A DNA stretch of 64,000 nucleotides from Chiloscyllium plagiosum (Eukaryota), in the NCBI RefSeq assembly GCF_004010195.1, contig NC_057723.1, positions 40,140,432-40,204,431 on the forward strand. Reading direction: 5' to 3'. The notes under the pieces were generated by a model. That model did not search any database and was not told where the DNA came from. It worked only from the letters and a program-made list of their open reading frames with translations. Numbering within the stretch: position 1 is the first letter of the stretch; each line of letters starts with the position of its first letter. Shown here piece by piece: positions 1 through 56,100 of the stretch. Both the position numbers and the translations under genes were made by a program.

Positions 1-406
1 ATGATGGTTGGAGGAAGAGCGCCTCATCTTCTGCCTAGGAACCCTCCAACCACAAGGCAGGAACGCGGGTTTCACCAGTTTCCTCATTTCCCCTCCCCCC
101 ACCTTGTCTCAGTCAAATCCATCGAATTCAGCACCGCCTTCCTAACCTGCAATCTTCTTCCCGACCTCTCCGCCCCCCCCCCACTCTGGCCCTTCACCCT
201 CACCTTGACCTCTTTCCACCTATCACATTTCCGACGACCCTACCTTTTATCTTAGCCTGCTGGACAAACTTTCCTCATTCCTGAAGAAGGGCTTATGCCC
301 GAAATGTTGATTCTCCTGTTCCCTGGATGCTGCCTGACCTGCTGCGCTTTTCCAGCAACACATTTCCAGCTCTGATCTCCAGCATCTGCAGACCTCACTT
401 TCTCCT
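1..406 (+). mobile_element. Penelope-like element 3' end (GIY-YIG C-terminus, pLTR with hammerhead motif)
   Basis: Frame +2 from position 8 reads LEEERLIFCLGTLQPQGRNAGFTSF, the PLE endonuclease tail motif. CTGAAGA-agggc-ttat-gccc-GAAA lies at 281-304. Confidence 0.8.
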
Positions 407-449
407 ATTAAATAATGATGTAGAGGAACCGGTGTTGGACTGGGTGGAC

Positions 450-600
450 AAAGTTAAAATCACACAATACCAGGTTATAATCCAACTGGTTTATTTGGAA
501 GCACTAGCTTTTGGAGATGATAAAGGAGCAGTGCTCTGAAAGCTAGTGCTTCCAAATAAACCTGTTCAACTATAACCTAGTGTTTTGTGATTTTTAAATT
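450..600. repeat. Inverted repeat from a second PLE family (about 67-bp arms)
   Basis: 450-516 is the near reverse complement of 534-600. A decayed hammerhead-like core (gatgataaaggagcagtgctctGAAAgct) sits in the centre. Confidence 0.75.
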
Positions 601-1590: not shown

Positions 1591-1619
1591 CCAGATGCAA
1601 AGAGACTTTCTAAGTAGGA

Positions 1620-2330
1620 ACAAAAACAGAAATTCTGGCAAACCTCAGCAGGTCTGGCAGCAACTGTGGGAAGAAAGCAGAGTTCATGTTTCAAATCCAG
1701 TGACTCCTCATCAGAATCTTCATCAGAACAGCTAGAAAAAGTTGGTGAAAAAAATCCCAAAAAGCAAGCTCACTAAACTTAACACGTTACCACTGTTTTC
1801 TCTGCATAGATGCTGTCAGACCTGTTGAGATTTTCCAACAACTTCTGTTTATTTGTTGAGGAAAAACTAGTATTTATAAGAGGAGGTTGAGTTGATAGTG
1901 CAGGGAGGGGTGAATGGATAGGTGGAGATGGAGCCGAGAGAGATGAAAGAATTAGGTAAATAAGGGAACTCTGGATGACAGGTCAAGTCAGACCTGAACC
2001 TGAATAAGTGATAATGAGAGCTGAGGGAGACGAGAGTCTCTACTGCAAGCAAACCATGTACTATGATAATAGGCCTCAGAGTGAGGGAAAATGGGTTGGC
2101 TGTGCTAAAAGCAACCCATGTCATAACAGGACTGGTGGGGGGCTGGGTAATAAAACATAACTTTAGAGCCAGATTCTAATCTTTATCAAAATCAATGAGT
2201 CCCAGAGGCTGCTGGATTGCCAGCAGAAAATGATCTTTGAGCTTGTGCTGAGGCTCACTGGAACATAGGCTTGTGACAGAAATGTTGGCATGGGATCACA
2301 GTGGTGTGTTGAAGTGTGTTGCACAGTGTC
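1620..2330 (-). mobile_element. Penelope-like fragments (inverted pLTR pair plus GIY-YIG tail)
   Basis: Minus-strand CTGATGA...GAAAcatgaact at about 1680-1730. An inverted copy of the same pLTR lies at 1770-1857, and a PLE C-terminal relic at 2160-2330. Confidence 0.65.
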
Positions 2331-3619: not shown

Positions 3620-4260
3620 AAGAGTAAAACAAAAAAATGTTAGAAATACTCAGCAAGTTAAGTAATAACAATGGAGTGAGAAACAGAGTGACATCTCAGG
3701 TAAATAAGCCTTCATCAATACTGGAAAAAAGCTAGAGATGTGATAGGCTTTGAGCAAGCATTTGGTGAGACAAGAACAAAAGGAACGTCAGTGATGGTTA
3801 GGAAAGATTGCAATAAGATTTCGTTTTCCGGGGCCAAAGAAAATGGTATGCAGCAGGAAGAGAAACAATAAAACAAAGGGTTATTATCTGAATAAAAAAT
3901 AAGAAAAAAACCCCAAAACATGCAAATAAAAGCATACAAAATTGATAGAACGTAGTTTATGGCTAAAATTATTGAATTTAATTTTGAGTCTAGAAGGCTG
4001 CATAGTGCCAAAATAAAAAATGAAATGGTGTTCATAAGGCCTACACTGAGTTTCACAGGAACGGTACAGGAGGCCAAGAACAGAGATGTCCGTATGGGAG
4101 CAAAGTGAAGAATTAAAATGACAGGCCACCTTAAGCTTGGGTTACTGCTTGTGAACTGAATGGAAGTGTCACTCAAAGCAGTCACACCGTCAGTGTTTGA
4201 TATCCCCAGAGCAGAGGAATCCATATTGTGAACAATGAATGCACCATATTTAACCACATG
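3620..4260 (-). mobile_element. Penelope-like element 3' fragment
   Basis: ORF 3884-4129 reads ACHFNSSLCSHTDISVLGLLY...EHHFIFYFGTMQPSRLKIKFNNF, a GIY-YIG C-terminal consensus. A pLTR remnant lies at 3620-3720. Confidence 0.8.
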
Positions 4261-4682
4261 TTATCTCTCAGTGACATTATCCAAAAACCATCATTAGTTG
4301 CTATGTGTATGCTAATGACATTTAGCTCTCCCTAACTATGACCTTGTCCTCCAATATCATTAACTGATCAGACTTCTTGTCTGGCATGTAGCTAAACGAC
4401 CACACATTTTCTCCAGTTATGTAATAGGAATATACTAAAGCCATTGCCTTTTGGTCCTCTTTGCTAATTCTGTTCCCTAACCCCTTGCTTCAGAACTCTC
4501 AAGTAACTGTCCATGTGTGAACCATAACTTCACAACCTAGGAGCTATATATGATAAGGAGGTAAACTTCTAATTAGATATCTATGCCATCTATTTTTGCC
4601 TCTTTAACATCAGCTAATTCTGCTCCTTCGTCAGCTCCTTTACTTCTGAAACTCTCATTCGTGTCTTCTGTTCCTTGCCATG

Positions 4683-4988
4683 GGTGACATGCTGGCTCAG
4701 TGGTTAGCACTGCTGCCTCACAGTGCCAGTTTGCACATTCTCCCCAGTTGCTGTGTGGGTTTCCTCTGCGTGCTCCGGTTTCTTCCCACAGTCCAAAAAT
4801 GTGCAGGTTAGGTGAACTGGCCATGCTAAATTGCCCATTGTGTTCAGGGATGTGTAGGTGAGGTGCATTAGTCAGGGCTAAATGTAGAGTGATTGGTAGG
4901 GGAATGAGCCTGGGTGAGATACTCCTCAGTAGGTTAGTGTAGACTTGTTGGGCCAAATAGCCTGTTTCCACACCATAGGGATTCTACA
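4683..4988 (+). mobile_element. HE1-type V-SINE (internally deleted)
   Basis: tRNA-like head tggctcagtggttagcactgctgcctca, V-domain gtttgcacattctcccc...gtgcaggttagg, and a CR1-like tail. Confidence 0.85.
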
Positions 4989-5324
4989 AACTTAACAATC
5001 CAATAGACTCCTGGCTTGCCTCTCATGTTCTACACATATAAATGTGAGTTTATCCAACATTTTGCTGCATGTGTCCTAATTTGCATTTAATCCAATTTAC
5101 TCATTATTCCTGTGCCCACAGCTTATAAACACTTCTAGTAAAGCAACATCCCAATTTTGAAATTCTCATTCTTCAGTTGAAATCGCTTTATGGCCTACCT
5201 CCTTCCTATCTCTCACACTAAAACCCTTAACTATTTGAATTTCTCTAACTTTGACCTCTTGAGTTTTGCTGGTTTTGATTCCTCCATCACTGGGAACTGA
5301 GGCTTTCATTGTCAGGACCATAAG

Positions 5325-5626
5325 CTTTTTGGCCTTCTAGAGCAAGGAGTTGACCTCAAATGAGTGTTGCTGACTGGCACATTCCAAGGTCCAGGACTAT
5401 GTGATGAGGGACATACTAAAGCTTGGGGCTTAGCTACTGTCAAAAGGCAGTGGGGAAAGACCACCATCTAAAGTTTCTCAGCCAAAGTTTAATAGGGGCC
5501 TGTTAAGAATCAAACTCCAATGTTTGTTTGTTTCTTCATATGCTACTATACAGAACAGAACTGCTCAGTGACTGCATATAAAGATATTTTTATGAATAAA
5601 GTATACTTCTGAAATGAGAAAAAAGT
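5325..5626 (+). mobile_element. L1/Tx1-clade LINE 3' fragment
   Basis: Translates ECC*LAHSKVQDYVMRDILKLG...QWGKTTI*, followed by a 3' UTR ending tatgaAATAAAgtata and an A-rich tail. Possible degenerate TSD gaccataagc/gtccgtaagc. Confidence 0.6.
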
Positions 5627-8104
5627 CCGTAAGCTCCGGAGCACCCACCATGAACGCTTCTGTCTCTTTTCCTCGGTTTCTTCCTTAGAATGTGCATTTG
5701 AGTTGTTTCTGTGACCAAGCTTTTGGTTGCTTGTCATTGATAACTTCTCATGTGGTTCAGTGTCACATTAATGTTGCTGTAAAGCACCTGGGGACATTTT
5801 ATTATTTGAAAAGTGTTGTTCTTGTAAAAGTTGTTGTTTGTTTTCCATAATCATATACTACTGTCAATAAAATAAATAATTCTCACACTCCTAATTCTAC
5901 AGCTAACTTTGTCTTGACTCCTTATTTGTGTCTCCCTTATTAAGAACTTCACTAGTCCCAGGCAGAAAGGTCATATGATAAGTGGAAAGAAGAAAGGACA
6001 AATAAAATTAGCCTTCAAAGTATAAGCAGACAATTATATGGAGATTTTCTTTGCCCCTGAGATCCATTACATTTTCCAATAGTTTGTTTTGCTTGAAAAC
6101 ATCTGTATTTTCTCTGTGGAATACCAGCATAAAAATACTTAACGCAATCAACCAAAATTTCTCTCTGTCCTATTTTAGCTGTGGTATTTAGCAATACTCT
6201 TTCAAAAGGTGAACACCTTCTCAAAGGCAATTAAGGATGGACATAAGTGCCCCCATCTTGTGAATAAATAAGAAAAAAACATTCAAATAGTATATGAAAA
6301 TTATCAAGTGAATACTTGAAGTTTGTTGGTATCTCACAAAAATGTTTTAAGACCTATTTGTCATCGAATAATGCAAATCTAATTACTAATTAATTTCTGT
6401 GGCTCAACTCATGCTGCTATCTGCCATTGTGTCAATTCCTCTCATTCCAATCATATATCCAGAATGTTGTTTATGTCTTTTTTTGGGTTATCTTCTAGCA
6501 CTTTCTTTGTCTTGAGGAGTTCAGGATCAAGTCCTTTCAAACTATCATAACAAATCATTTATACCATACGTGCTTAATCATTTTAAATTCAGACTGACTA
6601 TCTTCTGTATCTGAAGGTGAATGATATGTTTTGGCTTTTTGCCATCAATGCAAGATAACACTCTGTGTGGATGGTTTGGAATTATGCATGAGCAATGATT
6701 CCTGTACTGCATATTTATAAAGTCTATATTCTTGCATTGTACCAATTTCTGTTGGATACTTTAGAATTTCAACAACAACACCTTAAAGGGATTTTATGGA
6801 TCCTACAGAGCAGGAATGTGGCATGCGGTGTGACCTAATTAGGTGAGATGCAAAATTTAAACTACTTAACAACAGTGGTTAGAGGGAGAGAGATAAAGTC
6901 AGTGATGTGCTTGTGGTTGTCAAAAATAATGCTGGCCTGTGTTGGTATCATATTTCTAATATATTTGCATGGCACAGATACTGATTAACATGAACAGTTT
7001 TCAATAAAACTAACGCCTCAGAAGAATTTTGCGGCACCTGCTTCGTAATAGTTTAAAGATGGTGTGCACTAGTTGGCTTTATGAAGTTGTGTGTAAGGTC
7101 ATTGGTTTTCCTTGGTTAACCCTCCAGCACACAGGAGGGAGGCAGGATTCTTGCTGCTTCAGGACTAGCAACGATGAGTCAGGAGAAGAAGGGGTTGTGG
7201 AGTAGTGTTGGGAGCATGGAGGATTGGAAGAAAGAACCAGAGCTGGTTAATCCTGCCAATTAATCCAATAAATTCAGCCATATCTCAGACTGATATGTAC
7301 AACACTGAACACTATACTATGTATGTTCAATAAACATTGAATGCAAGAATACCAGTTTCTTCCACTAAAGGAAAAGCCCTTAACCCCTCATATAATCATC
7401 AATGCATTGCCAATAAATATAGCTTTTCAGCTTAAGAGGTCTCAACAAATAACAATAATGCACATAAATAAAGTGAAACCCAAACAGTGTAGAACATTTT
7501 GGAAATTTTACTTTGAAAAACATCCGTGCTACCTTTGTGCTCTCAAGTTTGTTTGTGGCAACGTTGTTGGGTAGGAAAATTGTGACTGTGATGCTGAGAC
7601 TCCCAGTTTGACCAGGAGGTTCTTTAATAGGATGCCCATAGATTATCTGTAGGGCCAGCAGTTGTAAGGTCTCATTGCACAGTGCACCTACCGAGCTGCC
7701 AGATGTCCAATTAGCCAGAAGCTCTCTAAAACAGAGCCTTCTCCCAATTCAGGGGCAGAAGTCTCACTTTAAAGCAATCAATGTTCTACCTACTTGCTAT
7801 GGGACAGCTGTCAGGATTATGGGCAGACTCCCACCAACGTTTTACAAAGCACAATGCGGGACTCAGGCTTGCACAAGACTCACGGCCTGTGTCCAGCAAA
7901 ATCTGTTTCTGAATCTATGCAGCTGCCAATAAACATAACAGCTTAGGTGTCACATATGTTGAATAGTGCTCCTCAAGTTCAAAGGAGGAAGTCTTAGGAA
8001 AGCCTAGTACATTTGTTTTCCTTCTTATGTTACTAAATCCACAGCTAACTCTGTCATTTTGTCCACTTCCTTGATAAGCAAGAGTTACAAGAATGAGAAA
8101 CTTT

Positions 8105-8440
8105 GGAGTGGCACGGTGGCTCAGTGGTTAGCACTGCTGCCTCATAGCGCCAGGGACCCACTTTCAATTCCAACCTCGGGTGACTGTCTGTGTGGAGTTT
8201 GTACATTCTCCCTGTGCATGCGTGGGTTTCCTTCAAGTGCTCCAGTTTCCTCCCACATTCCATGATGTGCAGGTTAGGTGAACTGGCCATGCTAAATTAC
8301 CTATAGTGTTCAGGAATGTGTGGGTTATATGCATTAGTATGGGGAATGGGTCTGGGTGGGTTACTCTTCGGAGGGTCAGTGTGGACTTGTTGTGTCAAAG
8401 GGCCTGTTTCCACGCTGTAGGGATTCTAATTCTAATTCTT
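8105..8440 (+). mobile_element. HE1 V-SINE, near full length
   Basis: A box gtggctcagtgg, B-box-like ttcaattcc, V-domain, and tail gggattctaattctaattct. Confidence 0.9.
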
Positions 8441-8444
8441 TTAG

Positions 8445-8848
8445 TTATGAGGATGGATGGGACTCTTCTCCTTGAAGAGAAGAAGGCTGAGAGGAAATTT
8501 GACAGAGATTTTCAAAAATATGAGTAGATAGGGAGAGCTACTTCCATTTGTAAAATAAAAGAATAAGTGTGCAGAGATTTGAAGTGATATGTAAGTGAAG
8601 CAAGTAAATGTGAGGAAAAAAATGTTCACACAGTGAGTAGTTAGAGTATGGAATACACTGTCTGGAAGTGTGCAGGAGGCAGGGTTAATTGAGGTATTCA
8701 AAAGAGGCATTGGATGATTACTTGGATAGAAATGGTGTAAAAGAATAAGGGGAAAGGCAGAAAAATGGAACTAGGTAACAGAACTGACCCAGCCATGATG
8801 GGCCAAATTAGCCTCCTTCTATACTGTAACAATTCTGTGATTCTGTAA
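8445..8848 (+). mobile_element. CR1 LINE 3' fragment
   Basis: RLRGN-like segment, ttcacacagtgagtagttagagtatggaat (FTQRVVRVWN-like), and tail ttctgtgattctgt. Confidence 0.7.
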
Positions 8849-10094
8849 TGAAGCTCTTCCTCTTTGCACACCTTGTCAATGTTTTAATGATTTTGGTGTA
8901 AAATTGTGCATTTGTGAAATGCTTTGGGAAGCTTCACTATATTTATATGGAAGAAAATGTGTATTAAGTTTCAAAAGGTAACTTTTGGCATCAAAATAGA
9001 ATGGAAAGCAATGTATTTTTGGTTTTTCAACTGATAATCAAACACCCTGAATTCCCTTGCATGTCTTCACCCTTCTCAATCTGTGTGCCCACTGAGTTCT
9101 AAGGAAGCTTGTTTACCTGTATTTTCAGTCACAATCAAAATTCTAAACTATGATGTTTCAACTACTATGTGTGTTAGCTCCACCATGTACAGGGATTCCA
9201 GGCCATAGACTTCAGCCACTGTGGTAAACCACACAACAATTGCAGTAATGCACAGAAAATACGAAGCAATTCATTTGGATTCTGGTTGATGATTATAGCT
9301 TCATTACCAAATTTCACCACAGCAATTGGAAATGCTATACACATAGGCACAAATTAAATTTAAAATAAGCATTATTGTTTAATAATACAGGGATTAGGTC
9401 TAACACTGATGCTTTTCAGTTTAATTTTATGGCAGATGGGCTTCAAGTAATCTGGAACAACAGCTCGTTCATTATTTGATGTGGTATTTAAATAAGTAAT
9501 ATAAAATTACCCACATCAAGCAAGTGAGCGGAGCTACAGCTTCCGATTGTTGTGTTGACATCCTTTTGAATTTGAGAGAATATACTAGCAATCAACCATC
9601 ACATTGAACCAGTTCTCCTGGTAGGGAGTTTTGAGCCAAGTTAATAACCTGTCACATAAATGGAGACTAAATTATAGAAATACCCTCTGCATGTAAAATA
9701 TTGAAAGAAATGAGATGCCTTATCTACTGTTAGGTATCGAAGCAACAAAGAATATGAAATTTCACCAGACAGTGTTAAGAACTTTTAATTGACAGAAGTT
9801 GCAAACTAATGAGTGTCGCTTCTGCAGTTCTACATCACACACCTGTAGAAAGGTCTGTCTGTATAATAAGGCCCATTGTCAGACTTGATCTCTTCAATGT
9901 ACCGAACTGGTTGAGTATCATATCCATTGTGTCTGGCACAAATATACTTAAGGTGTCCTTTAATTGTCTGACTGTTGGAAAGATGGGGAAGTAGGCAGTG
10001 ACAATGAGAGCCTTGTTGCAATGTATGGAAAATAAATCTATTGTGATCTTGGATCAAGAGAACAATGAAATGTAAAGGTAGAGGTTCTTTGGAT

Positions 10095-18385: not shown

Positions 18386-19403
18386 CTGAACCACTATGCT
18401 GCCCATCAGGTCTAATTCCATCCCCATTTTTCCTCGCACCATTCTCAAAACAACTGTGTTCAGCGGATAACTGCCAGCATCCCTTGCACCCACAGCATCT
18501 GTGAAAGGCCACTGTGCACCTAGACAAGCATTGACAACCTAGCATTGCACCTCACTGGCAATGTAATGGCTTTACAGCCATGCTAGTCATGGCACATAGC
18601 CAACATACTTGGCACTACTTCACACATGCAACCCTATTCTCTCACTTTAATATCACACATAAACAAGAAATCAACCAAATGCAAACGTGAACATTTCTTT
18701 ACAGGCAGCAAAGGTATCCAAGAGCAAGCAAGCAGCCCTGAGATGGAATTGGGTCCAACCCTTGAATTGAATGCCTGTCAATGCATGTCCTTGTTGCACC
18801 CTTTCAATGCAAGTTGCTGCCATGCTCTGCAATGTGGATCAGTGGTTCCTATGTGGTCTGCCAGTGGATTAGAGAATGCCGTGATGGTCACAAGGACAAA
18901 TGCAACATGGTAGCCATGGATTATGCCCTGACATGCTGGCTAGTCATAAGTAAAATAGTGGTTCTTTGAGTCGTGAGCTGAATCCAACTGGTCTGCTCTG
19001 ATTTCTGTGTCAGTATTTCTCGACATCTAGCTTATTTGGTCTCTTTTGTAGGATAGGGAACTCCATATTATTGAGGCAAGTTAAATAGAATAGTATAGTA
19101 ATTTATTTCACTTCATCAACAAAGCAGTTAATAATCTGTAATGTCTCCTTAATTGGCAACTCACTACTGCCTATGAGAAACTCGCCACACCATTAGACAA
19201 AACATAAAAGGTGGAGCAAACGGGCACGGTTGAAGTCACATCTGTCTCAGACATGCATATTGACATGCCTCAACAGGTTGATTAGAAAAATCTAAAAGAT
19301 GGAGTGAGATGCTCTCAACATTGAGATGGGCCTCAGTGAACTGCTCATCCAATTCGACTATAAGTTGCGCCATGGCTCATATTGGTCAGGCTGCTATAAG
19401 ATT

Positions 19404-19463
19404 TTCCTGCTCCTCCGATGCTGCCTGACCTGCTGTGCTTTTCCAGCACCACTCTAATCTAGA
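19404..19463 (+). mobile_element. Tiny PLE pLTR insertion with 13-bp TSD
   Basis: ctgctataagatt at 19391-19403 and 19464-19476 flanks pLTR sequence matching 23750-23810. Confidence 0.85.
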
Positions 19464-20178: not shown

Positions 20179-20268
20179 TGAAGAAGGGCTTGTGCCCGAA
20201 ACGTCGATTCTCCTGCTCCTTGGATGCTGCCTGACCTGCTGCGCTTTTCCAGCAACATATTTTTCAGG
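20179..20268 (+). mobile_element. PLE pLTR insertion truncated inside the hammerhead core, 11-bp TSD
   Basis: actaattaatg at 20170-20180 and 20269-20279. TGAAGA-agggc-ttgt-gccc-GAAAC-GTC. Confidence 0.85.
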
Positions 20269-20479
20269 ACTAATTAATGTACTGACTTAAGGAAACAAAT
20301 TATGCTTCGCCCATCATTTACAATATTGCTACTCAGTGAAGTAAATAACTAACTTTGAAATAAAATGGCATCTTCTCAATGTTGCTCACAGCTCAGAAAT
20401 GCAAATGAAAGGACAGATCATCTGTGAATACAAGTATTATAATTTTAATTTTAAATCATTAGCTATTAAAGTATTACGA

Positions 20480-21050: not shown

Positions 21051-21144
21051 TTAGGAGGGGAGGAGCTGTGAATGAAAACACAGCACAAGTTTAGAATTCA
21101 GGGGGTTCTTTTATATGAACTCAGAACATCAGAACTTTGTGAAT

Positions 21145-21275
21145 AGTTCTGATGAAGGGTCACTGGACTAGAAACATGAACTCTGTTTGTTTTTCTCTCA
21201 ACAGATGCTGCCAGACCTGCCGAGTTTCTCCAACACTTGTTCCATATCAAACAGCATCCACAGTTCTTTGTTTTA
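21145..21275 (+). mobile_element. PLE pLTR remnant with decayed hammerhead
   Basis: agtt-CTGATGA(21149-55)-agggtcactggacta-GAAA(21171-74)-catg-aact. Helix I arms agtt/aact are retained but the cleavage triplet is mutated. Confidence 0.75.
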
Positions 21276-21308: not shown

Positions 21309-21426
21309 TCTGGATTAGTGGTGCTGGAAGAGCCCAGCAATTCAGGCAGCATCCAAGGAGCAGTAAAATCGACGTTTCAGGCAAAAGTCCTTCATCAGCA
21401 TCTGCAGTCATTGTTTTTACCTTTTT
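21309..21426 (-). mobile_element. PLE mini-insertion with inverted segment and hammerhead motif, 12-bp TSD
   Basis: gcttaggatgat at 21297-21308 and 21427-21438. Minus strand CTGATGA-aggac-tttt-gcct-GAAAC-GTC at 21398-21371. Confidence 0.85.
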
Positions 21427-21858
21427 GCTTAGGATGATACCAGGGATAAGAGGCTTTAGTTGTGAGGAGAGATTAAGGAAATTATGACTCTTGCTAATAG
21501 AAAACAAATAAAGAGGATATTTGATAAATATTTCCAACTTCATGAGAAACTTTGACTCAAGTTTTATTTTATTAATATTGATGAGACAATAACTGAACAG
21601 CATCAAGAAGAAGGTTTAGGAGAATTAGTTTTGACATGAGGATTATTAGGTAATTGGATTTCCTACTTGATACGTTGGTGTAAGAAATTAAGTTGATAAA
21701 TATTTAAGAACAAACGTAAGGCGTTGTAGAATGGCTATGAAGTCAAAGTGAGTAGTTAACTGTTTCAAGCAATCAACATGAGACTACATGGAATGAATGG
21801 ACTGATGTAATTCTTTGATGTAGGAAATTCTGAACTTGTGCTCTGTTTTCATTTGCAG

Positions 21859-21982
21859 CTGCTACAACTACACTCTCACCTGAATCTGGACATGCAAGAA
21901 GGTGCAATGAATCGGAGAAATCCTACTGTGTCAATGGCGGTGTGTGTTATTATATTGATGGTATTAATAAACTTTCTTGCAA
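21859..21982 (+). CDS. NRG2: Neuregulin 2 common EGF-domain exon (Cys1-Cys4)
   Basis: Acceptor ttttcatttgcAG (21857-58), donor AA|GTAAGT (21983). 124 nt, phase 1 to 2, translating ATTTLSPESGHARRCNESEKSYCVNGGVCYYIDGINKLSCK. This closely matches recalled human NRG2 SGHARKCNETAKSYCVNGGVCYYIEGINQLSCK. The 10-residue Cys3-Cys4 loop is NRG2-type (NRG1 has 13). Confidence 0.96.
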
Positions 21983-22555
21983 GTAAGTGAGTGCATTTTT
22001 CTCAGGTGTTTACTCAGTACTTTTCTAGTGATTAAACATGTTTAATTTTATAATATTAAAAATGTTTTGTCTTTTGAGTACTGAAGGTTGGTTTGATGAT
22101 TGACAAGGGACTGATTATACTAGTCGGACTGTACAATCACAGCACTGCTCCACAGGGGGCCCAGAAATGTAAATGTGGAAAGATTACTGAAGTTATCATT
22201 ACATTGTATTGCTAAATCAATCAACTATTCAATAATGACAAAAAATGTTTATAAAGCACCTTGAACATAGTAAAATGTCCTAATATGCTTCACATAAGTA
22301 TTATGGCCATAAACCAGATGAGGACTATCAGATTAGCTATAATCTCATTGAATGGTGGAGCAGACTACTTCTGTTATTATGTCTTACTGTTCTGGGTATT
22401 CAGCCAGATGCCTAAAAAAACTTGGAAAGTGTAGAAGGCTTTAACAGACACCTTAAAGGAAGAAAACAAGTTAAAGAGCCAAAGAGGGTAGGATTTTGAC
22501 AATTATAATCTGGGATGCTCAAGTGGAAAGAATTCGAGGAGTGCAAATAATTAAG

Positions 22556-23669: not shown

Positions 23670-24312
23670 TCACAATGCCCAAAAGCTCCATCACCTTAAA
23701 AGCAAAATTCATGATGAACTGATGAGGGCTTTTGCCCGAAACGTCGATTTTCCTGCTCCTCGGATGCTGCCTGACCTGCTGTGCTTTTCCAGCACCACTC
23801 TAATCTTGACCATTCATGATGTGATGGACTACTCTTCACTTATCTGAATGAGTGAAACTGCAACTGAAGAGGTTGGGCAACATCTAGACCAACGCAGTCC
23901 ACTTGACTGGCACCCAATCTAACTATCCTTTTAACATTCACTTTCTCCACTACTGCTGTGCAAGGTCATCCATAAGACCCACAGCAATAACCCACCCACG
24001 GCTCCTCAGACTGAATCTTCCAAGCCCATGATTTCGACTACCTCAAAGGTTAAGGCAGCAGTTTCATGAAAATACAACCCTGCAAGTGCCTCTCAAAACC
24101 TACGCCACCCTGACTTGGAACTATATTGGGAGGCTATTCCTTCACTACCATAGGATTAAAACCATGGAATTTCTCCCTCGCAGCACAGTGGGTGCTCCTA
24201 TATTATAACTGTTCAAGAAAGCAGCTCACCACCACCCAGGCCCATTCAGCATAGGCAGTAAATGCTGGAAGCCTAGTCTGAGACATTCCCAGCCTGGGAA
24301 TGAATAAAAATA
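23670..24312 (+). mobile_element. Non-LTR retrotransposon 3' fragment (same family as 10872-11300)
   Basis: Ends ttcaagaaagcagctcaccaccacc...aggcagtaaatgctgg...gaatgaataaaaa. Confidence 0.6.
23717..23811 (+). mobile_element. PLE pLTR insertion with canonical hammerhead core, 10-bp TSD
   Basis: CTGATGA(23719-25) GGGC TTTT GCCC GAAA(23738-41) C GTC. attcatgatg at 23707-16 and 23812-21. Confidence 0.9.
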
Positions 24313-36360: not shown

Positions 36361-38006
36361 ATTTCTATTTTTTCATAGGGCAATGCAAATGGTTATTCAA
36401 ATTCTCACTGAATTATTGTATCTATAAACTACTTAATCACTGAAAAATTGATAATAATTTCCCTTTATTGAACATGAACTTTATATTTAGTCCCATATAA
36501 AATCCTTTTATTCCGGCAAAAATACAGCTAAGAGCAAAAGTTCTTTGTAATATGATTCAGCTCAAGAAATTTGATACTGCAAATGTTAAATTGTTAGATG
36601 GAAACTTTCACAGACTGAGGTTACTAAACCAGATTGAAACAGTCACTTCCTCAACCTGTTCAAATTAACTGATGGTTTTATTTTGTCACTCTATAGAATG
36701 AGTTCTCCCAATATATTTATCATGTCTTATTTTAACTAAAGGATAACTTGAACCAGACTTTTCATATATTAGGAAATTATACAGGTTATATATTATACAG
36801 GTTAGATAAATTTGAATTGGGAAGGAAAATAAACAGAAAGAAGTTAGCAAATTACTTGAAATTAGGCAAAAGAAGATAAAGAGCAAATGAGCATTTCTAG
36901 AGGTCTATAAGGAAAATATAACGAACAAATAATGTTTTGAGATTACAAGATTCGGAAATCTGTATTTAGTTCATAGTTTATCCACTCTGTTCATCCACAA
37001 ATATATTGCCTGGAATATATGGGCCACCATTATCTTTCTAAATAGATTTTCAGCAAATTAAAGGATGTAGGAAACAAAATAATGTGGAAATATGTAGTGA
37101 GAGAGATTACAGATAATATAACATTATCACACCCCTCCGAACTTTGACCCAGAGTACTTGGGGAAAGCAAAGAAGTGCTGTTTATCACAACTTTCCATGC
37201 ACCAAACAGATTTCTCCACAATGCGATGAAACTCAATTCAGAATCCTGCGAAATATATAACCAATGATTTGAATGACTTCCCTTTGAAAATCAGTTTTAT
37301 GTAGCTGGTTATTACAAATGATTGTTAATACAACTACTAATTTGTACCCGTTATAAAAATTCCGCACCTAATGCCTAATTAATTTGCAAAACTATATTAT
37401 GAAAGGTGTTAGTACAATTTCATGAAACCATACGTTGTGTTACTTCAAATCATATATGTATTTTAAGTATTTATTTAAACATTTAACATTATTAAATGCT
37501 ATTTATATTTCTAGTACATGATGTATGGTAACTTCATTCATTCAATTATAATAGCTTCATATATCAGTATCACTTTCAAGGTGACTGGTCTATGCAGCTT
37601 GAATTACTTCAAATTCCATAATTTTGCTTGTTCTTACTTTTTTACTGCAGTTCTCAGAAATATATAGTGCAGATTTATCAGTGTTGTTTTGGTAAATTAC
37701 TTGTACCACAACACAAAATATTTACTTGTGTTTATCCAAAATTAGTCATCATATTTTATTGAACTGGAATAAAAATTATTGACTCTGTATGTTTTCATTT
37801 CTCATTAAAATAATCTGAAATAATCTGTTCCAACCGTTAGTGAACCTACCAAACTAGCGGTGGAAAAAGGAACATACTATTTCAGCAGCTTCTTTGCTTT
37901 CTCATTATAACACAAATGATCCCATTGGGGAATGAAGTTATTTTGTAACTTCGACCTAGCATTTGCCTACATTTGTTTTGTGATTTGTCCCCTTTTCCTC
38001 CCCTAG

Positions 38007-38077
38007 ATGCCAACCTGGATTCTTCGGACAAAGATGTTTGGAGACTGAACCCTTGAGAACATATAAACCTGATCTAA
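38007..38077 (+). CDS. NRG2: Neuregulin 2 EGF alpha alternative exon
   Basis: Acceptor ccttttcctccccTAG, donor A|GTATGT. 71 nt, phase 2 to 1, translating (K)CQPGFFGQRCLETEPLRTYKPDL. It supplies Cys5-Cys6 and resembles human NRG2 alpha CPNGFFGQRCLEKLPLRLYMPDP. Confidence 0.94.
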
Positions 38078-38335
38078 GTATGTTATTGTAAGGAAGTGTT
38101 GCAGTACTTCTAGGTATCCTTGGTGACAGCACTGGAGTTGGGGATTTTGATTGAAGCAGCATATAAAGACCACTACATTTTGAAAAAAATGTTATTTTGA
38201 AAACATTTCTACTGCTGTTGAACAATCCAGTGGTTTCATCAATGTTTTTGGGATATGTGTCCTTGAATGCTCTGTTCTAATGTTAAACCCTTTCTATCTT
38301 GTTTCTTTCTCTATGGTTTTTGTTTTTCTTGTCAG

Positions 38336-38394
38336 GTGTCCAAATGAATTTACAGGTGATCGCTGCCAACACTACGTAATGGCCAGTTTCTACA
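38336..38394 (+). CDS. NRG2: Neuregulin 2 EGF beta alternative exon
   Basis: Long pyrimidine tract ending gtCAG, donor A|GTACGT. 59 nt, phase 2 to 1, translating (K)CPNEFTGDRCQHYVMASFY, the classic neuregulin beta C-loop. Confidence 0.95.
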
Positions 38395-45000: not shown

Positions 45001-45094
45001 AGATGTTGGCTACACACATCCCCAGACAGTGAGGCATGCAGCACCCCAAGAATGAGGGCTATGTCTCTGTCATATATGTAGCTTCAGCGTCAGA

Positions 45095-46745: not shown

Positions 46746-48901
46746 TCTGTTTATATGTTGGTGTGTGCACAACTTGGTGAAGGTGCTGTGCCAGCAGAGT
46801 CACCCTCATATTCCATCAAAAAGGGTGTGCCCACCGAGTTCCAACCCCTTTTGCATCCCAGACCACAGCAACAATGAAACTCATTCAGTTGAGTTCATTC
46901 TCATACCTACAAGATGAATGATGAAACAAATCATCTCTGCCTCCCACAGCACCCTTCCAATTTTCAAAAATTGGGAGTCACTTTTGGCTGGCATTTGCCT
47001 CTTTTAAAGACATTGCCATGATCTTCTACATCATTGAGCTCAATTTGCAAGCACCAATGGCACGGTGCAAATCACCTTCGACCAGCACTTGAAGCTTAGC
47101 GCATTCACTCTGCAGGAATTGCAAATGAACGATGAAATTACTGGAAATTATGTTTAACTGTTTTTTTACCAGTCAGTGACTTAGCCTCCAGCAGACAGGA
47201 ATCCTGCACCTTCGCCGATCAAACTGACACCGACTCTGCTCACCTTGGCATTGTTGCTGCCATTTCCGGTTTTATTAGCATCTAGTGAATGGCAAGTGCC
47301 AGGGGATGCAGACTACTATGGATACCATCAGCATTTGGATCTACCTAGTTGCCAAGTACTCACTCCCCAAGCCCAGAGCTTCCATGCCCACTTTAACGTT
47401 ACACTATTCCGACAACCCATTTCCACTCATTCTCACAACCCACTATCAATGTGGAGACCCATCACATTGAATTTTGTTTCCAACTGCACTTTCTGTGCCC
47501 TCAGCCCTGACATTGTAATATAATGATGGTGACCTGACTCCTCTGTACTCCCCCACTGGAGGCTATGGTGGTGGTCACTGGCAATGAAACTTCCCCCTCC
47601 ACTGTAGCCTCTCATATGCTTTAATGCAGTTCTGCATTACCCCATTATACCTTGATATTTCCCTCATCCCAATCTACTATCACCCACTGTCCAAGCTTTG
47701 ACTGCCCCACCCATTTGTGACAATGAGAGTTCTTCAGCCTCTACACTCCATTCCTCTTGCACCCTGCTCAAACGTCAATGCACGAAGCCCTCAGGACTGT
47801 ATTTGCTATACATCTCTGACCAACATCAATAAGTAGTCCCTCAACAAGATCGACCAGACCCCTCACAGCTGTCATTGCTGCTCCTTGACTGATGATGATG
47901 ACTCCCTTGACTGTGACTGCCAATAGGCCTGACCATTGCTAAGCCCCTGGACTATGTCCAGACTCTGCCCATGACTGACACAATGGGCACCCTCATGACT
48001 GACTACAGACCTCTCTTGACCAGACTGAAAATTAGTCCCACATACTTACTAAAATGGCCAATTGTTTGTAAGAGAGTGCAGCGTGTGAGTCTGTGCATGG
48101 GCTGTCATTTGCAGTAGATATTAGATTGATATGTCAGATATTAGATCGATATACTGCAAGATGCAAGCAGGTGCTAACTCAGAAAGTGCTAAGAGATCAA
48201 GTGAGCAACCTTGAGTTGCAGCCTGGTCCAAACTGTGGGCTGGGTGCTGTCTCTGCATGCAAAGTCTCCTTGCAGCAGCCTTTCAATGCTAGTTGCCAGA
48301 GTGCCATTCAATGCAGATCTGTACTTCATAAGCATCTTGCAGACAAATCAGAGGTGCCATGAGGATCCTGAGTCGCTGGTAAAAATCAGATATCAATGTC
48401 CATGGAAGAGGGATGTGTGCAGTCACTAGCCATGGTTCTGAGCTGCTGTTACAGGCAGATAACAGGAAGACATTTTCCACCCAGTGGTAAGCTGACGTCT
48501 CCAGGTACTTGCACTGACTTCCATGTGGAGAATTCCCAGAATCGAGCTTACTAAGGGTAGGATAGGAAGTTGCATATTAATAAGGTAAAATCTGTAGTGA
48601 ATATGGTCGCTGGCAAGCAATAAACCCCTTAATATGTAACTTATCACTCCCTAGCAGAATGTCCCATTGACACCCGGAACATAGTTAAAAGATGCAGTGA
48701 GTTATTCCCAGCATTGAGATAGTGCTCGCTGGACTTCTTGCATGATCATGTGACATTGCTCATTGTAGCCTATTTTATCCAGGCCCCTTTACGATAAATG
48801 AATGAATGAATGAATGAACGAACAACTGAGTTAATGCCACATACATCTGGAGAGCTACAGTGAAAACTGTTCTGTCACCTCAATCTAGTGCCATTTTGAG
48901 G

Positions 48902-50229: not shown

Positions 50230-50900
50230 GTTCATCAGAAAGCTATTGTCAAGGCCAACGTTGTGCTGCATGCAACAAGCTGCCATGAAAACGATTCTGC
50301 TGAATCCTGCATGGATTGTCTGCAGTGGTCCAGGTAGCAAAAGTATTGTTTCAGCACCTCGTCCTGTCTGACAGCATGCTGAGTGGTGTCAACATGTGCA
50401 CAGATTGTACACCAGGGTCATAAGCTATGTCCTCATAGCCACTTTCTTACTTGTTGCCATTGCTGAAGTGCTGATGAATGAAGGCATCATGATTGCTATA
50501 TGGATCTGCATGATCGGCTCTGGTCAGGTGGACATTGAAGACATGGAATTAGTTTTGACTGTGGTATAGGACGGAATTCTCATGCAGCTTTCTCAAAGCA
50601 ATGTGTGTGCTGTCAATGACACACTGAAACAAATTCCAAACTAGCAGCAGCATCAACATCTTCACTAAAATGTCTCTGACTCTGCTGCCAGTAGCTGTGG
50701 AGAGAGTGAGGACTACAGATACTGGGGAGTCAGAGTTGAAAAATTGGAGTTGGAAAAGCACAGCAGATCAGACAGCATCCGAGGAGCAGGAGAGTTTCAG
50801 GCATAAGCCCTTCATCAGGAATGCCAGCCAATGTGTACATGTCTGCCATAGATGCCAAAAGTACAGCTGCCAGGAACCATCTTTTGCAACCATTGAGTTT
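50230..50900 (-). mobile_element. Second PIF/Harbinger transposase relic, interrupted by a PLE fragment (about 50697-50822)
   Basis: Minus strand FQCVIDSTHIALRK...FHVFNVHL (GAIDCTH-like) and VLKQYFCYLDH (LKQRFRCLD-like). The nested PLE has CTGATGAagggcttatgcctGAAA at 50818-50795. Confidence 0.75.
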
Positions 50901-51302: not shown

Positions 51303-51708
51303 TAGGGTGTAGGTTTGCTTGCTGAGCTGTAGGTTGGATATCCAGATGTTTCATTACCTGGCTAGGTAACATCATCAGTGGTGACCTCCAAGTGAAGCAA
51401 AGCTGTTATCTCCTGCTTTCTATTTATATGTTTGTCCTGGGTGGGGTTCCTGGGGTTTATGGTGATGTCATTTCCTGTTTGTTTTCTGAGGGGTTGATAG
51501 ATGGTATCTAGTTCTATGTGTTTGTTTTATGGCGTTGTGGTTGGAGTGGCAGGCCTCTAAACAAACGGAGACAACAGCTTTGCTTCACTTGGAGGTCGCC
51601 ACTGATGATGTTACCTAGCCAGGTAATGAAACGTCTGGATATCAAACCTACAGCTCAGCGAGCAAACCTACACCCTAAACCTCAACCTGAGCTACAAACC
51701 TTACAAAA
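51303..51708. mobile_element. Penelope-like insertion with inverted pLTRs (111-bp arms) and GIY-YIG C-terminus
   Basis: Arms 51303-51413 and 51567-51677. The minus-strand spacer reads EACHSNHNAI/NKHIELDTIYQPLRKQTGN. Degenerate TSD aagatttcta/aagacttcta. Confidence 0.88.
51599..51638 (+). ncRNA. Minimal type I hammerhead ribozyme motif with intact core
   Basis: CCA-CTGATGA(51602-08)-t-GTTACC/tagcca/GGTAAT-GAAA(51628-31)-C-GTC-TGG. Helix I CCA/TGG, palindromic ACGT helix III. Predicted cleavage after 51635. Confidence 0.8.
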
Positions 51709-54700
51709 AGGAAGACTTCTAATTTTTATTATGTCAGATCTACTTCTAGCCTCAGCACAAGGGAAGCATCCTCTCAGTATCCAACCTAGCAAGTTTCCTC
51801 AAGACCTTGCATGTTAAAATACGATCATTGTCTTAATCTCCTATGATATAGGCCCAATGTGTTCAGCCTGTCCTCATGGGATAATCTTTTCATCCCAAAA
51901 CTGAGTTGTGTGAATATTCTCTGCTTTGCTTCTAATATAAATGTATTTCTTTGCAAGTAAGGAAACCAAAACCATAAAGAATGCTCTAGATGTCTCATTA
52001 AGACCTTGCACAGCTGCAGTAAAGTTTCCCTAATTTGTATTTCATTTCCCTTGCAATAAACACCAACATTTAATTTGCCCTGCTAATCTTTTGCTGTACT
52101 TGCACAGTAACTTTTTGTGATTCATCTACCAGGGCACCTAGATTCCTTTTTAATATGAAGTTCCGTAGGCACTCTTTGTTGAAATGCTACATTGTCTTTC
52201 TATTCTACCTCCCAAAATGGACAAGTTCACATTTTCCCACATTAAATTCTATCTGCCAATTTTCCCCAACTCACTTAGCCTTTTATATCCCTTTGTAATC
52301 TATTTGCCTTCTCTTTCCAAATTACCTTCTTAGCTACTTTACTGTCACTGACATACATTCGGGTTTTTCCTCTAAATCATTGATAAAGATTGTAAATTGT
52401 TGCCAACCCAGCACTGATCCTTATGGTAATGATACTTACTTATGATACTTACAGTCTGCCAAACTGAAATGACTCTTTTATCCACACTTTGTGATTCCTG
52501 TTAATTAACTAATCCCATATCTTTGCTGATGTGTTACTGCTTGTGGGAAAAGTTCTTATTGGTGTAGTAACCTTTGATGTGGCACCTTACGAGATGCATT
52601 TTGGAAATTCAAGTACAGGTTCCCCTTTATCAATCTTTCTTGTTACTTTCTCAAAGCACTCTTGAGTGCTATTTGCCATTTTCCATTCCATTGGGACTGT
52701 TTCTGAATCTAAGAAATTTTGAAATTTTACTGCTTCAATGTGTCAGCCTTTCGATCCAACAGTTTTCTCACTTTTTCATTGGTGGTATTTATTTTAGCTT
52801 AAACAAAAAGTTGTCTTAATCAGAAATATTTCAGAAAACCTTTCTGAGGGAGAAATAAACTGAAGAGATTGAGGGACATCATTGGACAGTATCGTCCAGT
52901 CTGAGACACTTTTGCGCATTGGCTGAATGGCTAGCACATGATCACATGATGACTGATCAATTAGATAGACACATGTAAAGAACTTGGCAAATCACACACA
53001 TTAGTGAATAGGTAGTCGATGTCTCCGCTGTTATTTCACGGGGTGAAAGATGTAGATGTCACCCAAGTGGGCATTCGTTCCTTGAGAGCCAGAAGCATTA
53101 TTCTCACTGTCCCCATGATTCAGTGAAACCTCCCCTCAGGTTTTCCTCCAGACTGTATGAGAACAGTTTCCCATGGAAGACAGCAGAAGGCCCTCCCTTC
53201 TGTCCAAAGCTTTTTGATCAACGGACATTTACATGGCAACAGCCACACTTTGGTCTCTACCCACGCTGTCATGGTGAACTCCATCCTGGGGAGTCATTGG
53301 AGAGAGCACATTGTATGAACACAGACATATGAGTGGACACTCGCACATTGATTGGAAGCTGCCACCCTCAAGCCTCCCTCAATCATCTTCGAACTTCTCC
53401 GAATCAGCCTCAACTTTCACTGTATCACTCTTGCTTACTCATAGTGACTGTCGACCCGAACCCATCAGCCTTCAAAATCTACTATTGACTCTTGAGCTTC
53501 CTTCAGCAGAATTGAATTGTGCTGTTATCCTCAACCCTTTGGCAATTTTGCAAGGGGCAGCTTCCTAATTAACCACCATTAGGTGTTCCATCCTTTTAAG
53601 GATGGTGTGCTGAATTCTGATGCAGCCAACCCAGTCAGAGGGCGAGGAGCTCTGAAGTTTTGGCAGTTCCACCAGCAGTGAATATTAAAGGCAGAGTAAT
53701 TTTTTGATGGTCAACTGAAGGCCACATCGTTTGGAGGGCAAGCCCCTCCTAGTGGAGTTGCAGCACTGCCTTCCCTGCCCACACCCCTCTTGCTGGGGCA
53801 AGGAGCTTCTGGTTTCAGTGGTCTCCTTAGGCTGTATTTCCATGAAATGGGAGGCATGCTCACCTAGTGGTTATAATTGTATTGCAAGTGTAGAGTTTAG
53901 TTACATTTAAAGATCATGAGTGTGGTTAACTATAAATTTTGTGTCAGCAATTTACTTTTTATAACCAATTGTTGATTTCATATCCTGAAATCCCTACAGA
54001 AACAGATTTCAGTACTCTTGCAACAACTATGCAGGAAAGCTGTGCTTTTCAAGTTTATGTTAACTGATCAAGAGAATTTTGAGGAAAAGTCTGGAAATTA
54101 TTGCTACATGCTGCTTGTTTATTAGTGGAATAATAATTAGGTGGTACACTGATAATCTATTGGGTCTGTTTGTTTAAGTTTCACTCTGATTTCTCCCAGT
54201 ACTTTCATAGTCTAGATCAATCATGATCTAAAATGTAGTTCACAGGTCATTTAATAGCAGGTGCTTTGCGAACTTGCCATGTTTCTGTGTAACACGTCCA
54301 TGGGGAAGGATTTCATTACAGCCTAGTCAGTTTACATTGGCAGTTCCTATTATAAATATAGACTTGGACATTTATAATGGAAATATGTTTTATAGAAAGT
54401 GTGTGGAAATTTAAGATTGTTAACACATTCAATCAATCTCCAGTGAAATTGCACACAGGAAGTCAATATCAGGTGTAACCATCAGGTGAAATGAGAATAG
54501 AAGGCAATGGATTATTAGAGTAGAGATGTAGTCCTGTTGCTTTGAAAAAATTTTTTTTATATTGCACAATAAATTCTTAATTCAAAGTGCCAATATAAAC
54601 TTATCATACTGTAATTACACCCTATTGTTGCTGTTACAGGGGATCAGCTGAAGGGAAGAATGGAGATTTATAATTGCATACTTTATAAATGGGGATATCA

Positions 54701-55344
54701 CGTTTATGTATGTAGTGATTTATATTTTTATATAAAGGAATTTTGCTTGATAATGAACATCATTTTTGTGCTTATGAAAGTACCACATTTTATGTTTTTC
54801 TAGAGGGATAGATTTCTGTCAAATCATATGCCATCAATGTTTAGTGTTTGTGCTTCACCTTAGAAATGCCTGGCTATTCTTGATGCACAGATTTATCTTC
54901 TGATCATTGATCAGTAATTCAACAGAAATATGTAACAGTGTAGTTATAAAGGATGAATGTGTACTTTTATACATTCTTCCCCTCTAATATTGGATTTGTC
55001 TCTACTTAATTTGTTTTTTTTTTTGGAAAATCCATAGGGACCAATTAACTTATGGGTAGAATTTCCCATATCATTCCTAAGTGTGGGAGAAGTGTGTAAG
55101 TTGACAACTGACACATTGCCCTCACCGGTGAAATAACTCCCCTGATCACCCATCAGTTAGCTCATTAAGGGCTGACTACTGAGTGAGGGTGAGTACCTTT
55201 GCCTCATCACAGCACTAAATGCGGATGTCTCGGCTCACCAGAAACTGACAGGCAATCAGAATTAACCATCATCTGGGTCCAAATGTCTGCTGATTGAAGT
55301 TGACTCTTTTGGGGATCCAGTGACCAGAAGGTAAGTTTTTGAGT

Positions 55345-56100
55345 TTTGAAAAAAAATGTAATTTGTCAAAGCTTTTCATCTTGCACTCATCAGGGCAATT
55401 TGCAAGAATATCAATGTAAAGAGAAAGTCACATTTATGAAAAGAGAGTGCCGATTGTTTGGCATGTGGACTCTGATTAGCAAATACAATCAGTATATCTC
55501 TCGTGAATCACATCAAATAGCATGTCTCTTGGCTTTTTGCAGCAAACAAGGTACTGACCAATTAACCTGTATTGGTAAAACTCACAACACATGATTAGGC
55601 ATCACTAACAGGATAATTCTAAGTGTGCAAATAATTATGCTGACAAACAATTTAGGATTGCTAGTCAGATTTAGTGTGCTTCAATAGTGAATACTGGAAT
55701 TTACATATATTAACACAAAAGACCCTGTTCTATTCAGATAAAAGGAACATGCACTGTGCAAGTCTCAACTGAACAAAATAGGTGACAGTCATTCACTAGT
55801 TACCTTCTCAGGGCAATGTCTTGACCAATCAGAAAAGAAAGTCTGCCTGCTCTAAAATTTAAACTAATCTTGGCATTTAAATGACAGTCATCACTAACTG
55901 GTGCATTTTGCATGGAAACATCTCTATCAGTCAGAATCCATTTGCCAGTTAATCAGCACTCCCCTGATACAATACAGACATTGTTTTCCCTTCTCATTGG
56001 CATTTTTAAGAATTTTCGTGAAGATGCTGCTGAATTCTGACTGCCTGTCAGTTTCTGGTGAACGGTGAAAATCTTTTTAAAAAGTGTTATTTTTCAGCAA
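55345..56100. mobile_element. Old PLE insertion with inverted pLTR and GIY-YIG tail
   Basis: Minus-strand CTGATGAgtgcaagatGAAAagctt at about 55393-55369. About 55400-55500 is inverted relative to about 55925-56020. YINTKDPVLFR*KEH (PVLCRQKE-like) at about 55705-55750. Confidence 0.6.

What the first reader, a model, noticed from the sequence alone, without database searches (positions are those of the whole stretch)
281..55393. NRG2 introns carry about ten Penelope-derived hammerhead ribozyme motifs from several families
Seen: CTGANGA-stem-GAAA cores, intact or decayed, at 281(+), about 516(+), about 1713(-), 20179(+), 21149(+), 21398(-), 23719(+), 50818(-), 51378(-), 51602(+) and about 55393(-). 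At least five different helix II sequences occur (GGGC/GCCC, GGAGC/GCTC, GTC-ACTG-GAC, GTTACC/GGTAAT, GT-GCAAG-AT). Known: PLE pLTRs carry minimal type I hammerheads that cleave well mainly as dimers through a palindromic helix III. Inference: several sense-strand copies ending GAAAC-GTC (20179, 23719, 51602) lie in one pre-mRNA and might complement each other in cis, giving co-transcriptional intron cleavage. Most copies look disabled.
Basis: partly seen in the sequence, partly recalled or inferred. Interest (0 to 1): 0.7.

Follow-up and report, generated by a model that had tools for sequence, protein, structure and literature searches.

The report
Ordinary Penelope hammerhead stubs, shark NRG2
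The eleven ribozyme-like motifs are real end pieces of very common Penelope-type jumping genes lying in introns of a shark NRG2 gene, at an ordinary density and mostly damaged, and they likely do not pair up to cut the gene's RNA.

Summary
All 11 motifs are present and lie in NRG2 introns (6 sense, 5 antisense). They belong to five repeat families. Three are tied here to Penelope RT/GIY-YIG remnants, one weakly, one not at all, and helices I-III covary across families. Nothing is special about this locus. The window holds 15 remnants against 19-26 per 64 kb elsewhere, and one family alone has 42,927 perfect copies genome-wide.

The cis-pairing idea fails. 20179 lacks C3, 23719 lacks the 5' strand of helix I, and 51602 has a family-incompatible helix I and is predicted to be locked in a 111-bp hairpin with its antisense twin.

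Across 1.62 Mb of introns in three genes, intact cores are 30 sense versus 32 antisense. Genome-wide, the core-killing and the tolerated change of one CpG are equally common (4,333 versus 4,357).

Verdict: likely inert, neutrally decaying pLTR stubs of a known kind (Cervera and De la Pena 2014). Cleavage was not assayed. The scan has reported the same elements many times on other DNA of this genome.

The parts
1..405 (+). 3' end of a family-A Penelope-like insertion: C-terminus of the GIY-YIG ORF (about 2-85), 3' region, hammerhead at 279-310 (C3 = 281; predicted cut after 308), tail to 405. The same insertion has an inverted copy and a second sense hammerhead (G12 changed to A) about 4 kb upstream of the window.
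   Evidence: Frame 2 reads WLEEERLIFCLGTLQPQG, matching the end of RT+GIY-YIG proteins in related loci. A 16-nt sequence at 405-420 recurs upstream of the inverted copy (read by eye as a target-site duplication). The core is intact but for a U15.2-G16.2 wobble and U17; helix I is 2 bp.
456..594 (.). Family-B fold-back stub: inverted arms 456-516 and 534-594; sense hammerhead at about 517-546 with a damaged core (ATGATAA)
   Evidence: 61-nt arms, 85% complementary; hairpin -70.8 kcal/mol
1635..1837 (.). Family-C inverted pair; antisense motif with C3 at 1714, helix II closing pair and cleavage triplet decayed (GAAACATG)
19400..19463 (+).
   Evidence: HMM match from position 37; 13-nt target-site duplication 19391-19403 / 19464-19476, which overlaps the first 4 nt, so the exact start is ambiguous
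20179..20268 (+). Family-A stub truncated inside the core: no C3, no helix I 5' strand; only the substrate half (GAAAC-GTC-GATTC) is intact
   Evidence: 11-nt target-site duplication 20170-20180 / 20269-20279
21143..21232 (+). Family-C stub, C3 at 21149; helix II closing pair lost, palindrome ACAT, G17: predicted dead
21319..21400 (-). Family-A stub antisense to NRG2, C3 at 21398; core letters present, no helix I
21858..21988 (+). NRG2 EGF-domain exon (host gene)
   Evidence: tblastn with P0001 and splice sites
23719..23811 (+). Family-A stub starting at C3; core, helix II and ACGT palindrome intact, helix I 5' strand absent
   Evidence: 10-nt target-site duplication 23707-23716 / 23812-23821; 0-1 bp of helix I with any partner
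38005..38393 (+). NRG2 alpha (38005-38076) and beta (38334-38393) EGF-tail exons (host gene)
50747..50823 (-). Family-A stub antisense to NRG2, C3 at 50818; the cleavage triplet region is deleted
51303..51677 (.). Family-D inverted pair: antisense motif with C3 at 51378 (palindrome decayed to ACAT) and sense motif with C3 at 51602 (core intact, 3-bp helix I, 7-bp helix II closed by G-U, predicted cut after 51635)
   Evidence: 111-nt arms, 95% complementary, 153 nt apart; computed probability 0.999 that the sense motif pairs with the upstream arm
55338..55521 (-). Old family-E remnant antisense to NRG2, C3 at 55393; 2-bp helix II, AAGCTT palindrome; an inverted partner without core lies at about 55893-56013
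   Evidence: no Penelope ORF could be tied to this family
63723..63827 (+). NRG2 transmembrane exon (host gene)

Best explanation
The motifs are minimal type I hammerheads in truncated end pieces (pLTRs) of several Penelope-like retroelement families that inserted independently into shark NRG2 introns, where they are likely inert and likely decay neutrally. Shown: identity, family structure, target-site duplications, ordinary density, no strand bias in the sample, symmetric CpG decay. Inferred: the fold was selected in the master elements, since helices covary between families and G12 is kept, and there it would work as a tandem dimer, probably helped by the element's own protein. A lone copy in a host intron has only 2-3 bp of helix I and a 4-nt palindrome, no close compatible partner, and often a much stronger antisense twin, so it would rarely fold into an active core before the intron is spliced out.
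For: Penelope link: RT and GIY-YIG remnants lie about 200-1,750 nt upstream of same-strand hammerheads of families A, B and D. The relatives used as queries carry PF00078, and P0162 also PF01541. Covariation: 95.3% of cells paired against 70.7% shuffled, 34 two-sided changes, slid controls 22-46% (16 distinct hand-picked A/C/D copies). The same holds in 126 distinct anchored motifs for 7 of 8 pairs. Abundance: 42,927 exact family-A copies, 0 for the reversed control pattern. Neutral decay: C11.1-to-T 4,357 vs G12-to-A 4,333, p=0.81. No strand bias in 555 remnants over 1,619,940 intronic bases: all 286/269, intact 30/32 (95% CI of sense share 0.35-0.61), intact plus wobble 49/43, intact without a nearby inverted twin 14/12. 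294 of 555 have an inverted same-family copy within 1 kb. Pairing matrix and energies. Literature.
Against: Cleavage was not measured, and nearest-neighbour energies omit Mg2+ and tertiary stabilisation. In NRG2 alone, intact cores are 7 sense vs 13 antisense (p=0.26). Close same-family pairs (<5 kb, both intact or near-intact) are 2 sense vs 5 antisense. Both lean towards mild depletion but are not significant. The strand test covers three genes, whose expression and possible nested genes were not checked, and cannot exclude a deficit of up to about 45%. Among family-A copies, G12 is kept in 59 of 64 sense vs 47 of 58 antisense copies (p=0.11). Old family E shows TG 56: CA 26 at the same CpG among 100 of 756 listed matches (hand tally; p=0.0012). 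One formally complete bimolecular core exists: 281 as enzyme on the substrate halves at -3789, 20179 or 23719. Families C and E are weakly or not tied to a Penelope ORF.
Confidence: 0.85

Rival explanations
1. One reading: sense copies at 20179, 23719 and 51602 complement each other in cis and cut the NRG2 pre-mRNA co-transcriptionally.
For: All three keep the ACGT palindrome and GTC triplet, so a 4-bp helix III can be drawn between any two. Dimer cleavage is documented for tandem amphibian and PLE hammerheads.
Against: As enzyme, 20179 has no C3; 23719 forms 0-1 bp of helix I; 51602 forms 0 bp with family-A substrates. They are 3.5, 28 and 31 kb apart in three introns. Antisense duplexes compete at -123 to -216 kcal/mol against about -30 to -37 for sense-sense pairs. 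No strand bias.
Confidence: 0.02
2. Latent, protein-triggered cutting: a few near-intact sense copies (281, or intact ones elsewhere in NRG2) cut at a low level only when a Penelope protein or a trans partner RNA is present, for example in the germ line.
For: The anole PLE hammerhead cleaves only with the element's protein. NRG2 carries 7 strictly intact sense copies in 656 kb. Family RNA is present in a poly(A) run (reads from other copies). Earlier scan notes report U6 joined at predicted cut sites (not checked here).
Against: No selective footprint. In the anole the protein-binding region was mapped to the first 172 nt of the ORF, which short stubs may lack. The same paper found no RNA-seq ends at the cut site. 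281 has an inverted partner at -201 kcal/mol, and its bimolecular core gains only 0.7 kcal/mol. I saw no clear pile-up of 5' ends at the cut site among 268 family-A copies (3 at HMM position 37, 3 at 36).
Confidence: 0.1
3. One of the copies has been domesticated as an NRG2 regulator, like the conserved intronic hammerheads of amniotes or the CPEB3 ribozyme.
For: The precedent exists. The old family-E motif keeps core letters although its family's flanks have diverged widely.
Against: The family-E copy is antisense to NRG2. Family-E copies found with a flank-only profile mostly have decayed cores. The sense copies are repeat insertions without the 6-bp helix I and loop contacts of canonical motifs.
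Confidence: 0.03

Closest known systems
Minimal hammerheads (min-HHR) in pLTRs of metazoan Penelope-like elements; Cervera and De la Pena 2014, PMC4209133 (parts 1-2 of 4 read)
   Same: Type I topology, CUGANGA and GAAA boxes, an extra nucleotide between A9 and G10.1, G10.1-C11.1, palindromic 15.2-16.2, several consensus families per genome, most copies single and truncated, some inverted pairs 100-700 bp apart; described in fish Xena, Poseidon and Neptune elements and genome-wide.
   Different: Sharks are not named in the parts read. The copy number here (42,927 exact copies of one family) far exceeds the 4,000-9,000 given there for coelacanth and Xenopus, although search methods differ. Helix I is only 2-3 bp.
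Neptune/Nematis-type EN+ Penelope-like elements; Craig et al. 2021, PMC8557442 (passages read)
   Same: 5' truncation, partial tandems, inverted 5' copy and RT then GIY-YIG. Family A and B ORF remnants carry a C-x(4)-C-x-x-C motif before GIY-YIG, as described for these clades.
   Different: Clade membership was not tested by phylogeny; no full-length element was recovered.
PAc (Poseidon of Anolis) protein-assisted hammerhead; Frangieh et al. 2024, PMC11167929 (parts 1-2 of 4 read)
   Same: Hammerhead in the pLTR of a vertebrate PLE, inactive alone.
   Different: Different element; protein dependence of the shark motifs is untested.
Non-LTR retrozymes (PMC7229834, passages; bioRxiv 10.64898/2026.07.22.740005, part 1 and passages)
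   Same: Type I hammerheads needing dimers, derived from PLEs.
   Different: Retrozymes are head-to-tail tandem arrays. None of the 9 tandem arrays in the window overlaps a motif; these copies are dispersed or inverted.
Conserved intronic hammerheads of amniotes (RECK, CTCL; as summarised in PMC6155905, passages) and the CPEB3 ribozyme (PMC10919898, listing and start of abstract only)
   Same: Self-cleaving motif in an intron.
   Different: Those are rare, conserved motifs; these are high-copy, minimal, on both strands equally and decaying.

Membership tests
Minimal type I hammerhead (min-HHR) | CUGANGA and GAAA-N..N-UH boxes in type I order | tested here: met
   Met at family level and for 5 of 11 listed copies; the others are mutated or truncated
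Minimal type I hammerhead (min-HHR) | Helices I and II supported by covariation | tested here: met
   95.3% paired vs 70.7% shuffled; 5 of 8 pairs with two-sided changes. Related sequences inflate the shuffle contrast, but the slid controls are also far lower.
Minimal type I hammerhead (min-HHR) | Palindromic 15.2-16.2, extra nucleotide after A9, G10.1-C11.1 | tested here: met
   ACGT in A, C, D; AGCT in B; AAGCTT in E. G at 10.1 in 116 of 126, closing pair G-C 69 and G-U 46.
Minimal type I hammerhead (min-HHR) | Self-cleavage as a dimer | not testable with these tools
   Needs an in vitro assay; energy estimates disfavour it for these copies
Minimal type I hammerhead (min-HHR) | Match to a curated Rfam hammerhead model | tested here: not met
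   No hammerhead family at E<=5; likely because the motifs lack a stable helix III and loop 1 (inference)
Penelope-like element (EN+) | RT followed by C-terminal GIY-YIG upstream of the hammerhead-bearing repeat | tested here: met
   Families A, B, D; seen as broken remnants only
Penelope-like element (EN+) | Same ORF link for families C and E | tested here: inconclusive
   C: one RT remnant 829-1005 nt upstream. E: none attributable in 12 loci.
Penelope-like element (EN+) | 5' truncation, partial tandem and inverted 5' copies | tested here: met
   (294 of 555 with an inverted copy within 1 kb)
Penelope-like element (EN+) | RT phylogeny placing it in Neptune, Nematis or Penelope/Poseidon | not tested
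   No named reference elements were fetched
Non-LTR retrozyme | Head-to-tail tandem units each with a hammerhead | tested here: not met
Domesticated intronic ribozyme | Sense-strand bias or protection of the core from decay | tested here: not met
Domesticated intronic ribozyme | Conservation at the orthologous site across species | not testable with these tools
   The genome has no relatives held

The most novel reading that the evidence does not exclude
Shark pre-mRNAs carry tens of thousands of perfect, sense-strand minimal hammerheads that are silent alone but become cut sites when a Penelope protein (or a partner RNA) is expressed, so a retroelement burst would trigger transcriptome-wide intron cleavage, NRG2 included.
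Probability: 0.08. Interest if true: 0.7.

Novelty: new member of a known kind. Interest (0 to 1): 0.15.

Why it matters
As a feature of NRG2 it does not matter: every long shark intron sampled looks the same. The by-product has modest value. The cellular activity of animal Penelope hammerheads is still open. A genome that tolerates intact copies equally on both strands of introns, and loses the catalytic G12 at the neutral CpG rate, suggests that isolated copies do not cut host RNA, or that the cut costs nothing. With more than 40,000 identical copies, this genome is a good place to test that by end sequencing.

Tried and rejected
Rfam scan: no hammerhead hit; the mir-302 hits at 484-566 are the family-B hairpin.

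Tandem-array (retrozyme) reading: no array overlaps a motif.

Local enrichment: rejected.

Cis dimer among the three named copies: rejected.

Pile-up of 5' ends at the cut site as a record of in vivo cleavage: only a slight bump among 268 family-A hits, and the window's example at 19400 overlaps its target-site duplication. Inconclusive.

Conservation of the old family-E core: the 13 exact matches are selected by the pattern, and flank-selected copies are mostly decayed. The TG excess is more simply a master with U11.1: by eye, TG also predominates in core-dead E copies, and reads of family D show no alternative letter listed at 51627. This was not proven by subfamily analysis.

First alignment A1 misaligned family B by one column, so the 5 B rows were dropped for the pair count; B is included in the anchored count.

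RNA data: no RNA holder listed. In run X11 the EGF exon had about 5-fold depth, reads on the repeats came from other copies, and no ends piled up; X12 laid no reads. Fragmented poly(A) libraries cannot show ribozyme ends.

Lunse et al. 2017 (PMC5785218) and De la Pena 2010 (PMC2933863) are not held; they are known here only from citations in other papers. No supplements were read; those of Cervera 2014 may list shark motifs.

Searches for a shark report listed no paper whose title or abstract start describes shark PLE hammerheads. The 2026 preprint included one cartilaginous fish for retrozymes.
Full report
1. Observation. All eleven positions hold hammerhead-like repeat remnants. A descriptor (CUGANGA, optional extra base, helix II of 2 bp or more, GAAA, palindrome, UH) finds 6 motifs in the window against 0.27 on average in 100 shuffles. 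Rfam gives no hammerhead hit. The host gene is NRG2 on the + strand. The Neuregulin family hits just downstream, the last exon is 100% identical to a protein its source names pro-neuregulin-2 of Chiloscyllium plagiosum, exons map through the window, and exon 1 is about 617 kb upstream. Six motifs are sense and five antisense, over three introns.

2. What the repeats are. Window bases 2-85 encode the C-terminus of a Penelope GIY-YIG ORF. In related loci and in the 864 kb, RT and GIY-YIG remnants lie about 200-1,750 nt upstream of same-strand hammerheads of families A, B and D. The query relatives carry RVT_1, and P0162 also GIY-YIG. Family C has one such link and family E none. Short copies have 10-13-nt target-site duplications, and 294 of 555 have an inverted same-family copy within 1 kb. 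This is the truncation and inversion pattern described for PLEs.

3. The fold was selected in the master elements. On 16 distinct hand-picked copies of A, C and D, 95.3% of cells pair against 70.7% in shuffles and 22-46% in slid controls; helix I pairs occur as C-G, A-U, U-A and G-C. On 126 distinct anchored motifs including B, 7 of 8 pairs exceed the maximum of 1,000 shuffles; the eighth, 10.1-11.1, cannot because G10.1 hardly varies. These are real minimal type I hammerheads as defined by Cervera and De la Pena.

4. The window is ordinary. It holds 15 remnants. NRG2 averages 19.7 per 64 kb over 656 kb and the downstream 184 kb 22.3; stretches of a glypican-family gene and a vinculin/alpha-catenin-family gene hold 19.0-26.4. 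One 32-letter pattern for a perfect family-A motif matches 42,927 places, and the reversed control none. That is 0.77 expected per window, and the window has none.

5. Cis pairing. In a dimer, the strand that carries the core must also supply helix I to its partner's 3' flank. 20179 begins after C3; 23719 begins at C3 without the helix I strand; 51602 has CCA, which fits only family-D flanks. No ordered pair among the three has both an intact core and 2 bp of helix I. 51602 is predicted to pair with its 95% inverted twin 153 nt upstream with probability 0.999. 20179 and 23719 can pair with the antisense copy at 21398 at -123 and -137 kcal/mol, against about -30 for each other. The only formally complete combination is 281 acting on the substrate halves at -3789, 20179 or 23719. 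It has a wobble in helix III and 2 bp of helix I, gains 0.7 kcal/mol in cofolding, and competes with a -201 kcal/mol inverted partner; the -3789 copy is itself inside a long fold-back. These energies omit tertiary and Mg2+ effects. Published dimers of this class cleave weakly, and the anole motif needs the element's protein.

6. Selection tests. (a) Strand: in 1,619,940 intronic bases of three genes, 555 remnants split 286 sense and 269 antisense. Strictly intact cores split 30 and 32 (95% CI of sense share 0.35-0.61), intact plus wobble 49 and 43, and intact without a nearby twin 14 and 12. Against this, NRG2 alone gives 7 and 13 (p=0.26), and close intact pairs 2 and 5; neither is significant. 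(b) Decay: at the CpG spanning C11.1 and G12, the tolerated C-to-T change has 4,357 matches and the core-killing G-to-A change 4,333 (p=0.81). That G12 is essential is recalled hammerhead chemistry. So the core is neither protected nor preferentially destroyed after insertion. Unexplained in part: family E shows TG 56 to CA 26 among 100 of 756 listed matches (hand tally). This is probably a master with U11.1, as in family D, but it was not proven.

7. Mechanism. Most likely (0.85): independent target-primed insertions of truncated pLTR ends; hammerheads functional in the tandem element RNA, probably with protein help; lone intronic copies inert and decaying. Cleavage itself was not measured, and the RNA runs available were uninformative.

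8. Novelty. A new member of a known kind. Three literature searches listed no paper describing these motifs in sharks, but the class, its genome-wide scatter and its inverted pairs are published. Earlier notes of this scan describe the same elements at many other places in this genome and none at this place. Interest 0.15.

Noticed in passing
window 1-420 and L007:5690-6276: The 281 copy is the 3' end of one composite insertion: inverted copy, second sense hammerhead with G12 changed to A, a run of N, ORF end, hammerhead. A 16-nt repeat bounds it on both sides. The upstream part folds into a hairpin of about 270 bp (-505 kcal/mol).
   Followed up: partly
window 21319-21400 (-) and 23719-23811 (+): Two family-A copies in opposite orientation flank the EGF exon and can form a duplex of about 80 bp (-137 kcal/mol). 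Fold-back RNA, with possible A-to-I editing or effects on splicing, is a likelier consequence for the pre-mRNA than cleavage; untested.
   Followed up: partly
window 19400-19463: Core-less family-A stub that starts at or within 4 nt of the predicted cut site; the start overlaps its 13-nt target-site duplication.
   Followed up: partly
window 20556-20633: Family-A-related tail with a 45-nt internal hairpin and a long flanking direct repeat, without a hammerhead.
   Followed up: no
window 55338-56013; genome-wide: Family E is an old dispersed repeat (27 profile hits in about 1.8 Mb) with a 2-bp helix II and a 6-nt palindrome, not tied to any ORF here. It shows a TG over CA excess at C11.1/G12 (56:26).
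   Followed up: partly
L016:298-3368: Family-B element with RT fragments on + and an inverted GIY-YIG end with a C-x4-C-x2-C motif on -, two identical intact hammerheads pointing outward.
   Followed up: partly
window 29906-30463 (-), 46350-46750 (-), 56256-56969 (+), 57329-57760: ORF fragments that look like CR1/L2-type LINE reverse transcriptase (recalled resemblance; not tested).
   Followed up: no
window 44380-44709 (-): ORF fragment resembling a Harbinger/HARBI1-type transposase nuclease (recalled resemblance; not tested).
   Followed up: no
G000:C32:28319941-28335258 (-): A second neuregulin-family gene with short 3' introns, the best Pfam PF02158 hit in the genome; identity not determined.
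   Followed up: no
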